Source of the DNA: Candidatus Nanohalarchaeota archaeon
GTDB lineage: Archaea > Nanohalarchaeota > Nanosalinia > Nanosalinales > JAFCCC01
Direction of reading: 5' to 3'
Assembly: GCA_017610385.1 (NCBI GenBank)
Contig: JAFCCC010000001.1
Location: 32,001-96,000 of the forward strand
DNA length: 64,000 bases
Made by a program: the position numbers and the translations under genes. The notes below the pieces were generated by a model. It was not told the origin of the DNA. It saw only the letters and a list, made by a program, of their open reading frames with translations, and ran no database searches. Shown here one piece after another: positions 7,590 through 41,353 of this stretch. How positions within the stretch are numbered: position 1 is the first letter of the stretch; each line of letters opens with the position of its first letter.

Positions 7590-7675
7590 GCCTTGGTAGC
7601 TTAGCTGGTAGAGCGCGTGGCTGTTAAAATTTTGCAGTAACCACGAGGTCGCAGGTTCAAGTCCTGCCCAAGGCG
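7590..7675 (+). tRNA. tRNA-Asn(GTT) with 13-nt intron at 37/38 (7627-7639)
   Basis: Acceptor GCCTTGG/CCAAGGC; stem CGTGG/CCACG; central helix CTGT/GCAG with TA|A bulges. Confidence 0.95.
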
Positions 7676-7732
7676 CACTGTTCTTAAAAATAAAACTATT
7701 ACATTTTTATCTCATTGATTTCAATTAGATGT

Positions 7733-13255: not shown

Positions 13256-13370
13256 ACTCTTAAGTAAGTTACGATTTTATTACCAAATATAAATCTTTAC
13301 ATTCACAGTTTGCATAAGTAGTAGATAAGCTTTTCAAATAAAAGCGAATAAACTGACGGGCATTTTAGCT

Positions 13371-13508
13371 GCCACAGTGGCTCAATTGGCAGAGCAGCTG
13401 CTTCGTATTGTAATGAGGAGGACACTTATTCCGATAAAATATGAGGACGTGAACACCCCCCGAACAAGAATCAGCAGCAGGTTGTGGGTTCAACTCCCAT
13501 CTGTGGCT
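13371..13508 (+). tRNA. tRNA-Thr(CGT) with 65-nt intron at 37/38 (13408-13472)
   Basis: Acceptor GCCACAG/CTGTGGC + U73; stem GCTGC/GCAGC; loop TT-CGT-A|...|A; relaxed BHB (TTCG/AGAA with one mismatch, TGT/ACA outer helix). Confidence 0.92.
13408..13472 (+). ncRNA. Intron-encoded box C/D guide sRNA
   Basis: C ATGAGGA 13413-19; guide GGACACTTATT; D' CCGA 13431-34; C' ATGAGGA 13441-47; guide CGTGAACACCCC; D CCGA 13460-63; terminal stem TTGT/ACAA. Confidence 0.8.
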
Positions 13509-15607: not shown

Positions 15608-15721
15608 GCGGGGGTAGCCAAGTGGTCAACGGCGATAGGCTCAAGTACTGAATTTGAGATCTGATTTAATGAAGAAACCTATTCCCATAGGGGTTCGTCG
15701 GTTCGAATCCGGCCTCCCGCA
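15608..15721 (+). tRNA. tRNA-Leu(CAA) with 31-nt intron at 37/38 (15646-15676)
   Basis: Acceptor GCGGGGG/CTCCCGC; stem ATAGG/CCTAT; long variable arm; T-loop TTCGAAT. Confidence 0.93.
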
Positions 15722-29351: not shown

Positions 29352-29897
29352 ATGTCAATTACAGGGACGCTCGCACAAAATAAAGTTAGAGTTACAAAAG
29401 AAATAGATCAGATTCACTCAGAAAAATATTATGGAAAAATAATTTCTGATTCTGGAAAAGATGTATTAGAATTATCTCTAACAGAAACGATGCATCTAGT
29501 CAATAAAGGAGAATTAACATTAAAGGACGGTAGAAAAAAATTAAATAATGAAGTAGTTTACGAGCGATTCTGCGAAATCGATGCAGAATTTCCACAGAAA
29601 TACACAGTTTATGCGGATTTGCGGGAACGAGGATATATTGTAAAAAGTGGTTTCAAATTTGGTACACACTTTAGAGTTTATTCCAGAGGAGTAAACCCTT
29701 ACAAAGAAGGCCAAAAAGAACAAAAAGAACATACTAAATGGGTTGTACATGCAGTTCCTGAAAATTATACATTATCTTATCAAGAAATGTCAAGATCTGT
29801 CCGTTTGGCTCAAAACATTAGAACTAAAATGCTTTGGGCGGTTGTAGATTCGGAAAATGAAGTCACGTACTATGAGATATATCGTTTAAGACCATAG
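29352..29897 (+). CDS. endA: tRNA-intron (splicing) endonuclease
   Basis: LSLTE, VYADLRERGYIVKSGFKFGTHFRVY, catalytic His, C-terminal VVD..VTYY..RP. Confidence 0.95.
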   Translation: MSITGTLAQNKVRVTKEIDQIHSEKYYGKIISDSGKDVLELSLTETMHLVNKGELTLKDGRKKLNNEVVYERFCEIDAEFPQKYTVYADLRERGYIVKSGFKFGTHFRVYSRGVNPYKEGQKEQKEHTKWVVHAVPENYTLSYQEMSRSVRLAQNIRTKMLWAVVDSENEVTYYEIYRLRP

Positions 29898-35126: not shown

Positions 35127-35376
35127 GGGGTTGTAGTTTAATCCGGCAGAATATTCGGCTCCAGATAACAGCTAGCTTAGTTAACATGCTCAACGAGTTG
35201 CGGGCAACTCACTTCACTTCGACGTTTAATTTTGCTTGAATTGGGAATGCATTAATTTCCGATTTAGGAAACTTAACAAGTTTCCGTGAGCTTTTATTTG
35301 AAAAGCTCATCCGAGCGCTCGGACTTTCTGGTTTTGGAGAAACCGAAGGATCTGGGTTCAAATCCCAGCGACCCCA
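35127..35376 (+). tRNA. tRNA-Trp(CCA) with 177-nt intron at 37/38 (35165-35341)
   Basis: Acceptor GGGGTTG/CGACCCC; stem TTCGG/CCGAA; BHB CTCC/GGAG with AG|A and AA|A bulges; T-arm CTGGG-TTCAAAT-CCCAG. Confidence 0.92.
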
Positions 35377-41281: not shown

Positions 41282-41353
41282 AAGTAATTTGGTGGGATTA
41301 TTTGCATAGAATATCAGCTAGTTGTGATGAATGGGCTTTTTACTGAATTACTT
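41282..41353 (+). ncRNA. Possible box C/D-like sRNA
   Basis: GTGATGA (41324-30), 12-nt guide, CTGA (41343-46), terminal stem AAGTAAT/ATTACTT; 5' boxes degenerate. Confidence 0.3.

What the first reader, a model, noticed from the sequence alone, without database searches (positions are those of the whole stretch)
13408..13472. tRNA-Thr(CGU) intron is a complete double-guide box C/D sRNA
Seen: the 65-nt intron reads stem TTGT - C (ATGAGGA) - 11-nt guide GGACACTTATT - D' (CCGA) - C' (ATGAGGA) - 12-nt guide CGTGAACACCCC - D (CCGA) - stem ACAA. The C and D variants co-vary (UGAGGA with CCGA), keeping the K-turn pairing. Established: intron-encoded C/D guides are known from euryarchaeal tRNA-Trp, where they act on the tRNA itself. 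Here the guides do not match this tRNA, so they would act in trans, like eukaryotic intronic snoRNAs. Inference: the D guide target (GGGGU*GUUCRCG, D+5 = U) resembles the 23S A-loop around U2552, although a typical A-loop sequence would mismatch at D+4.
Basis: partly seen in the sequence, partly recalled or inferred. Interest (0 to 1): 0.75.

Follow-up and report, generated by a model that had tools for sequence, protein, structure and literature searches.

The report
tRNA intron carrying a ribosome-methylation guide
The intron of a threonine tRNA gene in this tiny archaeal genome is itself a small guide RNA that most likely directs methylation of a universally modified nucleotide at the ribosome's catalytic centre, much as intron-borne snoRNAs do in eukaryotes.

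Summary
Observation confirmed. Window 13371-13508 is tRNA-Thr(CGU) (Rfam 52.6 bits). Its 65-nt intron at 37/38 (13408-13472) reads exactly as described: stem UUGU/ACAA, C AUGAGGA, 11-nt guide, D' CCGA, C' AUGAGGA, 12-nt guide, D CCGA.

The D guide pairs by 11 contiguous Watson-Crick bp with this genome's own 23S A-loop. The nucleotide opposite D+5 is the equivalent of E. coli U2552; 7 of 2000 shuffled guides match as well.

The same guide unit occurs in 18 of 70 genomes of the phylum. In 7, from three families, it lies inside the tRNA-Thr(CGU) intron. In 11, from a fourth family, it is a free-standing canonical C/D sRNA, and the one tRNA-Thr(CGU) read there (G015) has no intron.

Fibrillarin, Nop5, L7Ae, EndA and RtcB are all encoded. 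No convincing RlmE was found.

The D' guide has no credible target, and neither guide matches the host tRNA. There are no RNA data.

Verdict: a trans-acting, intron-hosted Um2552 guide. It is a new variant of known kinds: tRNA-Trp and tRNA-Met intron sRNAs, and free-standing U2552 guides.

The parts
13371..13407 (+). tRNA-Thr(CGU) 5' exon (acceptor, D arm, 5' anticodon stem, loop UUCGUA up to position 37)
   Evidence: Rfam RF00005 52.6 bits over 13371-13508; sequence read
13408..13472 (+). 65-nt intron at canonical position 37/38 = the box C/D sRNA
   Evidence: It is the only match to a loose full C/D regex in the whole genome
13408..13411 (+). 5' half of the terminal stem UUGU. It pairs with ACAA 13464-67 and serves both as the inner helix of the splice-site motif and as the C-stem of the k-turn
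   Evidence: fold. Compensatory changes at all 4 stem pairs in A1, whose rows that form the stem are mainly the intronic ones
13413..13419 (+). box C variant AUGAGGA
   Evidence: Aligned with AUGAUGA or AUGCGGA in the relatives
13420..13430 (+). D' guide GGACACUUAUU (11 nt), orphan
   Evidence: No rRNA match above 8 of 11. Longest Watson-Crick run 7 bp, reached by 1296 of 2000 shuffles
13431..13434 (+). box D' variant CCGA
13441..13447 (+). box C' variant AUGAGGA
   Evidence: aligned column block in A1
13448..13459 (+). D guide CGUGAACACCCC. Nucleotides 2-12 pair with own 23S positions 2607-2617. The nucleotide at D+5 (A13455) lies opposite U2611 = E. coli U2552
   Evidence: The core G.GAACACC is conserved in 18 of 70 genomes
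13460..13463 (+). box D variant CCGA
   Evidence: column 92 co-varies with column 13
13464..13467 (+). 3' half of the terminal stem ACAA
13468..13472 (+). Intron 3' tail GAAUC. GAA can pair with U32 U33 C34 of the anticodon loop (central helix of a relaxed bulge-helix-bulge); UC plus A38 form the 3' bulge
   Evidence: Read from the sequence. In relative G010 the equivalent helix is a perfect CUCG/CGAG. This is inference, not a computed result
13473..13508 (+). tRNA-Thr(CGU) 3' exon (A38, 3' anticodon stem, variable loop, T arm, acceptor, discriminator U)
29589..29870 (+). tRNA-splicing endonuclease (EndA) catalytic domain, the enzyme expected to excise the intron. It acts in trans and lies elsewhere in the same window
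   Evidence: PF01974, 97.7 bits, at G000:C13:61589-61870, inside a 184-aa open frame

Best explanation
The intron of tRNA-Thr(CGU) is a functional box C/D guide RNA that acts in trans on the large-subunit rRNA.

Proposed sequence of events:
1. The pre-tRNA is transcribed.
2. The splicing endonuclease EndA cuts at a relaxed bulge-helix-bulge. Its inner helix, UUGU/ACAA, is also the terminal stem of the sRNA.
3. RtcB joins the exons and probably circularises the 65-nt intron.
4. L7Ae binds the two k-turn or k-loop motifs (UGAGGA with CCGA, a G-C instead of U.U at position 3b.3n).
5. Nop5 and fibrillarin assemble on them.
6. The 12-nt D guide pairs with 23S nucleotides 2607-2617 and places fibrillarin on the ribose of U2611, the equivalent of E. 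coli U2552 in the A-loop (helix 92).

The D' guide has no recognisable target in this genome and probably serves only as the second, structural half of the RNP.

What is shown: the anatomy, the 11-bp complementarity with D+5 on U2552, conservation of the guide in 18 genomes, the intronic versus free-standing locations, and the presence of all the protein parts. What is inferred: excision, circularisation, RNP assembly on the variant boxes, and the methylation itself.
For: - Anatomy at exact canonical spacing. It is the only such site in the genome, with 0 in the reversed and shuffled controls.
- The D guide forms 11 contiguous Watson-Crick bp with the genome's own 23S at 2607-2617. D+5 lies opposite U2611, which a MAFFT alignment to E. 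coli rrlH maps to U2552. 7 of 2000 shuffled guides reach 11 bp anywhere in 23S plus 16S. The only other genome-wide hits are its own antisense strand and two interrupted matches.
- The pattern GANGACGTGAACACCNNCYRA (up to 1 mismatch) is present in 18 of 70 genomes of the phylum, with 0 control hits. In all 18 the residue at D+5 is the A that pairs with U2552.
- The A-loop is identical in the 5 genomes whose 23S region was assembled and aligned: the window's own plus 4 of the 18 relatives queried (a fifth match, G014, starts 3' of the A-loop).
- In 3 free-standing copies (G032, G044, G033) the D' guide targets the neighbouring G2553. This shows the family is an A-loop guide.
- The flanks, spacer and D' guide diverge freely while the D guide core is fixed.
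- The terminal stem shows changes on both sides at 4 of 4 pairs. 3b.3n is G-C in the 6 intronic rows and U.U in the 10 free-standing rows.
- Protein parts encoded: fibrillarin 266 bits, Nop5 121 bits, L7Ae 99.8 bits, EndA 97.7 bits, RtcB 531 bits.
- The best RlmE/rrmJ match is 24-26 bits against a 300-bit cut-off and covers only the SAM-binding part.
- Literature: U2552 is a predicted C/D sRNA target in five archaeal species (PMC4644070, passage seen). Yeast uses snR52 for the same site (PMC11542601 and PMC2584109, passages seen).
Against: - There are no expression, circularisation or methylation data. No listed sequencing run is on record as RNA.
- Both box pairs depart from the RUGAUGA/CUGA consensus. 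Whether Nop5-fibrillarin assembles on a G-C 3b.3n k-turn was not tested.
- Two relatives (G004, G022) carry UGCGGA/CCAA, which replaces the second sheared A.G pair by C.A. That would be unusual for a working k-turn.
- The D' guide is an orphan.
- The central helix of the splice motif has only 3 bp plus a G.A. The plain MFE fold (z = -1.43) does not itself draw a bulge-helix-bulge.
- A weak FtsJ-like ORF exists (31.9 bits in Pfam) and the genome is 93.5% complete, so a protein route to Um2552 is not excluded.
- With G.U pairs allowed, 3 of 100 shuffled D guides also reach 11 bp.
Confidence: 0.8

Rival explanations
1. The intron is a decaying relic of a C/D sRNA. The boxes have drifted (UGAGGA/CCGA), the D' guide is already dead, and the RNA no longer guides methylation. 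It survives only because the intron is spliced out harmlessly.
For: Both box pairs are non-consensus. The D' guide has no target. Relative G001 has a 19-nt tRNA-Thr(CGU) intron with similar ends but no C/D core, so the core can be absent from an intron at this position.
Against: The D guide still makes 11 perfect bp with D+5 on U2552, and its core is fixed across 18 genomes while everything around it varies. The C and D changes are paired (G-C), not random. The box spacings of 11 and 12 nt are intact. Fibrillarin, Nop5 and L7Ae are kept in a 0.79-Mb genome in which no other convincing guide was found.
Confidence: 0.08
2. [quoted passage not shown] In either case it does not catalyse methylation.
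For: The literature discusses a chaperone role for archaeal sRNAs (PMC6009581, section heading and passage seen). The sRNA's terminal stem is also the inner helix of the splice motif.
Against: D+5 falls exactly on the one A-loop nucleotide that is 2'-O-methylated across domains, in all 18 homologues. Free-standing homologues need no splicing help. In three genomes the second guide is offset by one to hit G2553, the other known methylated A-loop nucleotide. That precision is what a methylation guide requires and a chaperone does not.
Confidence: 0.07
3. Like the euryarchaeal tRNA-Trp intron, the guides act on the host pre-tRNA or tRNA-Thr itself.
For: This is the only experimentally characterised precedent for a tRNA-intron C/D sRNA (PMC7994747, passages seen).
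Against: The longest Watson-Crick helix between either guide and the spliced or unspliced tRNA-Thr is 4-5 bp.
Confidence: 0.02

Closest known systems
Pre-tRNA-Trp intron box C/D sRNA of Euryarchaeota (Haloferax volcanii; Pyrococcus sR50)
   Same: It is a complete C/D sRNA lying in a tRNA intron at 37/38 and released by the splicing endonuclease. The RNP acts in trans on precursors (PMC7994747, passages seen).
   Different: That intron guides Cm34 and Um39 of its own host tRNA. Here neither guide matches the host and the D guide targets 23S rRNA U2552. The host tRNA also differs (Thr CGU, not Trp), and the boxes are UGAGGA/CCGA.
Nanoarchaeum equitans elongator tRNA-Met intron (66 nt), a stable RNA with C/D features
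   Same: It comes from a small-genome archaeon, is a tRNA intron of nearly the same length, and has a box C with a T-to-G change (PMC3491384, passage and figure legend seen).
   Different: In the passages read, no target is given for it and no C'/D' pair is mentioned. Here the unit is a full double box with a precise rRNA target and 17 homologues.
Free-standing archaeal C/D sRNAs predicted to methylate the first A-loop nucleotide (E. coli U2552), and yeast snR52
   Same: The target nucleotide and the mechanism are the same (PMC4644070, passage seen; PMC11542601 and PMC2584109). The 11 free-standing copies in family f4 are of this ordinary kind.
   Different: Here the gene has no promoter or terminator of its own and is carried inside a tRNA intron.
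Eukaryotic intron-encoded box C/D snoRNAs
   Same: The guide RNA is produced from the intron of a host gene with an unrelated function and acts in trans on rRNA.
   Different: The host is a tRNA, not an mRNA. Release is by the BHB endonuclease, probably as a circle, rather than by spliceosomal splicing, debranching and exonuclease trimming. The eukaryotic processing route is recalled and summarised from PMC7994747.
RlmE/RrmJ/FtsJ, the stand-alone protein Um2552 methyltransferase
   Same: The product is the same (Um2552).
   Different: It is a protein-only enzyme. In this genome the best match is 24-26 bits against a 300-bit cut-off, so the guide RNA may replace it.

Membership tests
Archaeal box C/D sRNA (2'-O-methylation guide) | Terminal box C (RUGAUGA) and box D (CUGA) able to form a k-turn next to a short terminal stem | tested here: met
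   AUGAGGA with CCGA, a 3-nt bulge AAU and the stem UUGU/ACAA. Both tandem G.A/A.G positions are kept. U.U is replaced by G-C, and the change is paired across 6 intronic homologues. It is a variant of the consensus, not the consensus itself.
Archaeal box C/D sRNA (2'-O-methylation guide) | Internal D' and C' boxes (k-loop) with a short spacer | tested here: met
   CCGA, UAAAAU, AUGAGGA at 13431-13447
Archaeal box C/D sRNA (2'-O-methylation guide) | Guide spacers of about 12 nt between C and D' and between C' and D | tested here: met
   11 nt and 12 nt. That about 12 nt is the required length is recalled knowledge.
Archaeal box C/D sRNA (2'-O-methylation guide) | Guide complementary (9 bp or more) to rRNA or tRNA, with the target nucleotide opposite the fifth residue upstream of D or D' | tested here: met
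   D guide: 11 Watson-Crick bp with D+5 on U2611 = E. coli U2552. D' guide: not met.
Archaeal box C/D sRNA (2'-O-methylation guide) | Genome encodes L7Ae, Nop5 and fibrillarin | tested here: met
   99.8, 121.5 and 266.5 bits, all above the Pfam cut-offs
Archaeal box C/D sRNA (2'-O-methylation guide) | A stable RNA is made and the target is methylated | not testable with these tools
   No listed run is on record as RNA. No modification data.
Archaeal box C/D sRNA (2'-O-methylation guide) | Match to a curated Rfam C/D family | tested here: not met
   Nothing reaches a gathering score. The best match is snoU54, 14.1 bits against 35, E = 1.1. Archaeal sRNAs are mostly not in Rfam, so this says only that it belongs to no curated family.
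Archaeal tRNA intron spliced by EndA (bulge-helix-bulge) | Intron at canonical position 37/38 whose removal restores a 7-nt anticodon loop with U33 and a purine at 37 | tested here: met
   Removing 13408-13472 gives the loop UUCGUAA between GCUGC and GCAGC
Archaeal tRNA intron spliced by EndA (bulge-helix-bulge) | Two 3-nt bulges separated by a 4-bp helix and flanked by helices | tested here: inconclusive
   By hand: U32-A, U33-A, C34-G, then G35.A (3 bp plus a mismatch), with bulges UA|U and UC|A, flanked by the anticodon stem and UUGU/ACAA. RNAfold draws a 5x5 internal loop instead. In relative G010 the helix is a perfect CUCG/CGAG.
Archaeal tRNA intron spliced by EndA (bulge-helix-bulge) | Genome encodes EndA and the RtcB ligase | tested here: met
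   PF01974 97.7 bits (in the window, 29589-29870) and PF01139 531.6 bits
tRNA-Trp-intron type guide (modifies its own host tRNA) | Guides complementary to the host tRNA exons around positions 34 and 39 | tested here: not met
   Longest Watson-Crick helix is 4-5 bp

The most novel reading that the evidence does not exclude
This tRNA-Thr intron may be the only methylation guide left in the 0.79-Mb genome. In that case the whole fibrillarin-Nop5-L7Ae machinery is kept to methylate one nucleotide, U2552, in place of a lost RlmE. The guide has no gene of its own, so supply of this ribosome-maturation factor would be tied to transcription and splicing of one tRNA. On a weak single-gene tree the intronic position looks ancestral for the phylum, with later release to a free-standing gene next to tRNA-His in one family. 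That would make this a prokaryotic case of a guide RNA moving between an intron and an independent gene.
Probability: 0.2. Interest if true: 0.75.

Novelty: new variant of a known kind. Interest (0 to 1): 0.62.

Why it matters
tRNA-intron C/D sRNAs have been described as guides for their own host tRNA (tRNA-Trp) or without a known target (N. equitans tRNA-Met). This one is a clear trans-acting rRNA guide housed in a tRNA intron, the closest prokaryotic parallel to eukaryotic intronic snoRNAs. It is conserved across three families, and a fourth family carries the same guide as an ordinary gene.

Three questions become testable:
- How do guide RNAs move into or out of introns?
- Can a U4-like k-turn (G-C at 3b.3n) nucleate a methylating RNP?
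- Can a reduced genome keep the C/D machinery for a single essential ribosomal methylation instead of RlmE?

There is also a practical point. Standard tRNA and sRNA annotation misses it: ARAGORN's default mode did not call the gene, and no Rfam C/D family matches.

Tried and rejected
- D' guide target. No rRNA match above 8 of 11. The one exact 11-mer elsewhere (C13 minus strand, 13903) lies antisense to a 506-codon open frame (stop to stop) and is at chance expectation, about 0.5 by my own arithmetic. A 10-of-11 match lies between a tRNA and the 16S 5' end (C9 minus strand, 2997) and was not pursued. An apparent shared LSU site at 2048-2066 for several D' guides dissolved when the relatives' own 23S was read. 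An 8-bp helix with 3 G.U pairs to the A-loop is matched by 100 of 100 shuffles.
- Other C/D sRNAs in G000. Twelve further loci where an rRNA-complementary 9-mer sits between box-like words. Seven were read and looked like coding sequence; the four checked for open frames all lie inside long ones. Four more half-units in the 93 kb without long ORFs have matches of only 8-9 nt. None is convincing.
- Searching for the relatives' D' target as a contiguous genomic word gave only noise and the guides' own antisense strands.
- Class-level and phylum-level searches returned the same 70 genomes as the order-level search and added nothing.
- RNA evidence: no RNA holder listed.
- Literature. The slash in 'C/D' cannot be searched, and the term 'box c d' found no occurrences even in C/D reviews. 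A statement that the tRNA-Thr case is not in print therefore rests only on searches and on the passages read. Supplementary sRNA tables, which I could not open, might list such cases.
- The fibrillarin tree is too weak to settle whether the intronic location is ancestral. The window's own sequence is unresolved among the outgroups, and the f5 | (f3, f4) split has 83/61 support.
Full report
**1. The observation**

Window 13371-13508 (+) is a tRNA: Rfam RF00005, 52.6 bits, all 71 model positions, with a 67-nt insertion in the anticodon loop. ARAGORN as run by find_trnas did not call it.

Read directly, the gene is as follows:
- acceptor GCCACAG/CUGUGGC
- D arm GCUC..GAGC
- anticodon stem GCUGC/GCAGC
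- loop UU-CGU-A, then the intron, then A
- T arm GUGGG/CCCAU
- discriminator U

Removing 13408-13472 (65 nt) restores a 7-nt loop UUCGUAA, so this is tRNA-Thr(CGU) with an intron at the canonical 37/38 position.

The intron reads UUGU A AUGAGGA GGACACUUAUU CCGA UAAAAU AUGAGGA CGUGAACACCCC CCGA ACAA GAAUC.

A loose regular expression for a full C, guide, D', spacer, C', guide, D unit finds only this site on both strands of the 788,277-base genome. It finds none in the reversed genome and none in five shuffles.

**2. The organism and its machinery**

The window is G000:C13:32001-96000. G000 has 18 contigs, 0.79 Mb, 31-35% G+C by contig and 93.5% estimated completeness. It has one 23S gene (C6:248-3192) and one 16S gene (C9:281-1748, minus strand).

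Its fibrillarin is about 50-54% identical to those of Aenigmatarchaeota, Iainarchaeum and Woesearchaeota MAGs. It is therefore a small-genome archaeon of the DPANN type. Its phylum, class and order hold the same 70 species genomes in the collection.

The genome encodes every protein the proposed pathway needs:

| Protein | Score | Place |
|---|---|---|
| Fibrillarin | 266.5 bits | C11 |
| Nop5 | 121.5 bits | C11 |
| L7Ae | 99.8 bits | C18 |
| EndA (splicing endonuclease) | 97.7 bits | window 29589-29870 |
| RtcB | 531.6 bits | C9 |

The stand-alone Um2552 methyltransferase was not convincingly found. The best match to the rrmJ equivalog model is 24-26 bits against a 300-bit cut-off, and it covers only profile positions 20-81 of a 169-aa ORF. 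The same ORF reaches 31.9 bits on the broad Pfam FtsJ model. Only 2 of the 14 control genomes exceed the rrmJ cut-off, so this is 'no convincing RlmE', not proof of absence.

**3. The D guide target**

The reverse complement of the D guide was scanned against the genome's own rRNAs. 23S positions 2607-2618 read GGGGUGUUCACC. Eleven of twelve positions match, contiguously and all Watson-Crick, and only the 5'-most guide residue is unpaired.

[quoted passage not shown] Counting from box D, guide residues C, C, C, C, A pair with G2607, G2608, G2609, G2610 and U2611. The residue opposite D+5 is therefore exactly U2552.

This organism has G there, so the mismatch does not exist.

Shuffled guides reach 11 Watson-Crick bp anywhere in 23S plus 16S in 7 of 2000 trials. 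With G.U pairs allowed, and tRNAs added to the targets, 3 of 100 do. Genome-wide, the only other matches of 11 or more of 12 (G.U counted) are the guide's own antisense strand and two interrupted ones.

**4. Comparative evidence**

A BLAST search with the pre-tRNA already showed relatives whose match begins inside the intron, at box C'. The pattern GANGACGTGAACACCNNCYRA with up to 1 mismatch then hit 18 of 70 genomes, once each, with no hit of the reversed control pattern. The contexts were read.

*Intronic copies.* In seven genomes the unit lies in the 37/38 intron of tRNA-Thr(CGU):
- the window's own genome (family f1)
- G010, G004, G022 and G007 (family f5)
- G014 and G008 (family f3)

In f5 the introns are about 90 nt and longer, with an insertion between D' and C'. 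In f3 they are about 225-260 nt.

*Free-standing copies.* In eleven genomes of family f4 the unit is a free-standing, fully canonical sRNA (AUGAUGA .. CUGA .. AUGAUGA, guide, CUGA). In 8 of those 11 loci it lies 49-903 nt upstream of, and on the same strand as, a tRNA whose 5' word is that of the G015 tRNA with anticodon GUG. The complete genome G015 has an intron-less tRNA-Thr(CGU).

*A short intron.* G001 (family f2, 61% complete) has a 19-nt tRNA-Thr(CGU) intron, UUGUCAUAAGACAGGAAAU. Its ends resemble those of the window's intron, but it has no C/D core.

*The guide across the family.* In all 18 copies the D+5 residue is the A that pairs with U2552. The residues at D+1 and D+2 vary (C, U, A, G). 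Of the 18 relatives queried for the 23S region, 5 returned a match. The A-loop could be read in 4 of them (G041, G015, G008, G032), and it is identical to the window's own.

In G032, G044 and G033 the D' guide is a second A-loop guide shifted by one, which puts D'+5 on G2553. The family is therefore an A-loop guide, and in some lineages a dual Um2552/Gm2553 guide. These are the two positions reported as methylated in Haloarcula and yeast (PMC11542601 and PMC2584109, passages seen).

**5. The boxes and the stem**

I aligned 16 of the 18 copies (A1). G007 was left out for its 120-nt insert and G033 because it is identical to G044.

- Box C position 5 pairs with box D position 2 (k-turn position 3b.3n). 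It is G-C in all 6 intronic rows and U.U in all 10 free-standing rows.
- The adjacent G-C (4b.4n) is invariant in 16 of 16 rows.
- G007 reads GUGAUGAGGA .. CUGA. Its flanking stem fits the canonical GUGAUGA register.
- G004 and G022 share UGCGGA with CCAA. This is a paired change at the second sheared pair (A.G becomes C.A) that I cannot explain.
- The terminal stem shows changes on both sides at 4 of 4 pairs: UUGU/ACAA, CCUG/CAGG, CGC/GCG and CGU/GCG. No shuffle of 500 reached the observed covariation score. The tool's caveat applies: related sequences can exceed shuffles without any structure.

From memory, not from a call: the resulting motif AAU-GAGG/CCGA is the arrangement of the U4 snRNA 5' stem-loop k-turn. 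[quoted passage not shown]

**6. The D' guide**

GGACACUUAUU has no rRNA match better than 8 of 11. Its longest Watson-Crick run is 7 bp, which 1296 of 2000 shuffles equal. It has no tRNA match among the 35 tRNA genes or candidates tested. The one exact genomic 11-mer lies antisense to an open reading frame.

In the intronic relatives the D' guide is different and is conserved: GGAUYNUUGAGUG, and in G008 ..UUAAGUG. It fits the anticodon arm of tRNA-Leu(CAA), which I read in G014 and G008. The fit is ACUCAA plus GAUCC with one bulged guide residue, and D'+5 falls on C34. That is a target class known from Pyrococcus (PMC7994747, passage seen). This is a lead, not a result:
- The bulge is atypical.
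- G008's own version would need a tRNA-Leu(UAA), which I did not find.
- The window's guide does not fit its own tRNA-Leu genes.

I conclude that in this genome the D' half is an orphan and probably only structural.

**7. How it most likely works**

*Shown.* The anatomy, the precise complementarity, conservation of the guide, the paired box changes, and the presence of all the protein parts.

*Inferred.*
1. EndA cuts between 13407 and 13408 and between 13472 and 13473. By hand, U32 U33 C34 pair with G61 A62 A63 of the intron, and G35 faces A60. The bulges are U36 A37 | U1 and U64 C65 | A38. The motif is flanked by the anticodon stem and by UUGU/ACAA. That is a relaxed bulge-helix-bulge. RNAfold alone draws a 5x5 internal loop there, while G010 has a perfect CUCG/CGAG helix.
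2. RtcB ligates the exons and probably circularises the intron, as described for archaeal tRNA introns and C/D sRNAs (PMC7994747, passage seen).
3. L7Ae, Nop5 and fibrillarin assemble, and the D guide directs 2'-O-methylation of U2611.

Neither guide can act on the host tRNA: the longest helices are 4-5 bp. The RNP therefore acts in trans.

**8. Is it the only guide?**

Scans looked for rRNA-complementary words flanked by box-like motifs:
- 9-mers over the whole genome
- 8-mers in the 93 kb without long ORFs

They gave no other convincing sRNA. Of the twelve other 9-mer loci, seven were read and looked like coding sequence, and the four checked for open frames lie inside long ones. The rest match by only 8-9 nt.

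These scans are crude and would miss degenerate boxes or tRNA targets. The idea that the C/D machinery is kept for this one guide is therefore offered only as the novel case.

**9. Direction of evolution**

The tree is of fibrillarin: 29 rows from this phylum and 8 outgroup rows from other phyla. G001 was left out because its match is partial, and G025 because no match was found.
- f5 is placed outside a group of f3 plus f4 (support 83/61).
- The window's own f1 sequence is left unresolved among the outgroups.

If that order is right, the intronic state in f1, f5 and f3 brackets the free-standing state in f4. The intronic position would then be ancestral, and f4 released the sRNA and lost the intron. 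One protein with weak support cannot settle this.

**10. Comparison with what is known**

Intron-encoded C/D sRNAs in archaeal tRNAs are known for two cases:
- tRNA-Trp, where the targets are the host tRNA's own C34 and U39.
- N. equitans tRNA-Met, where no target is named in the passages I read.

Sources: PMC7994747 and PMC3491384, passages seen.

C/D guides for U2552 are known as predictions in five archaeal species and as snR52 in yeast (PMC4644070, PMC11542601 and PMC2584109, passages seen).

I found no description of a tRNA-intron sRNA that targets rRNA, or of a tRNA-Thr host, in searches or in the passages read. Those searches cannot use the string 'C/D', and supplementary tables were closed. 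The absence from print is provisional.

No Rfam family matches. The best is snoU54 at 14.1 bits against a gathering score of 35.

**11. Verdict**

I class it as a new variant of a known kind: a trans-acting rRNA guide for Um2552 hosted in a tRNA-Thr intron, conserved in three families, with a free-standing orthologue in a fourth. Interest 0.62. Confidence in the functional reading is 0.8. What is missing is any RNA or modification data.

Noticed in passing
window 35127-35376 (G000:C13:67127-67376) and G000:C17:23520-23757: ARAGORN with introns calls two tRNA-Trp(CCA) genes with 177-nt and 167-nt introns. Neither intron shows the classic tRNA-Trp C/D boxes. The two introns share a motif in opposite orientation (GAGTTG..CAACTCACTTCAC versus GTGAAGTGAGTTG..CAACTC). 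Rfam's tRNA model did not report either gene.
   Followed up: partly
G000:C12:15892-16114 and G000:C9:7021-7373; also window 13325-13346: The introns that ARAGORN predicts in tRNA-Pro(CGG) and tRNA-Pro(GGG) (151 and 276 nt) consist of repeated short hairpins of the type AAGCTTTTCAAATAAAAGCTT followed by AAGCAAAATAA. A nearly identical hairpin word (AAGCTTTTCAAATAAAAGCG) lies just upstream of the tRNA-Thr gene studied here.
   Followed up: no
window 15645-15674 (intron of tRNA-Leu(CAA), gene 15608-15721): The 30-nt intron UACUGAAUUUGAGAUCUGAUUUAAUGAAGA contains CUGA, UUUA, AUGAAGA (a D'/C'-like k-loop arrangement) preceded by UUGAG, which is complementary to the tRNA's own CUCAA. That complementarity is expected of a BHB helix, so it may mean nothing.
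   Followed up: no
G000:C9:9377-9498 (tRNA-Leu(UAA) intron): The intron contains UAUUGAGUG, the core of the D' guide that relatives carry in their tRNA-Thr introns (G014: GGAUUAUUGAGUGC). It also has a canonical AUGAUGA near its 3' end.
   Followed up: no
G015 loci L194, L196, L210, L211 (tRNA-Met, Lys, Gly(UCC), Leu(UAA)): Other long tRNA introns in this complete f4 genome carry box-like words: GAUGAGG..CCGAUGA in Met, GAUGAUGA-CCUCAAGAU-CAGA in Lys, and CCGA-UAAAGAGG-AUGAGGA in Gly. Three of them (Lys, Gly, Leu) share the word CCUCAAG. tRNA introns may be a common home for guide-like RNAs in this phylum.
   Followed up: no
L025 (G008:C1) about 1560-1800: The 3' end of tRNA-Thr(CGU), GGGTTCAAATCCCGGTCGGGGCTTC, is repeated three times within about 250 nt downstream of the gene. 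This is the kind of pattern integrative elements leave at a tRNA attachment site.
   Followed up: no
L026 and L027 (G004, G022): The terminal boxes are UGCGGA with CCAA. This is a paired change at the second sheared G.A/A.G position of the k-turn (A.G becomes C.A), shared by two genera. It is unexplained.
   Followed up: partly
window 41325-41346: An isolated GUGAUGA, 12 nt (AUGGGCUUUUUA), CUGA half-unit lies in a stretch without a long ORF. It has only 8-nt matches to 23S and no second box pair or terminal stem.
   Followed up: partly
window 7590-7676: In its default mode ARAGORN calls this tRNA as 'tRNA-???' with a 4-base anticodon (aaaa). With introns allowed it is tRNA-Asn(GUU) with a 13-nt intron.
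   Followed up: partly
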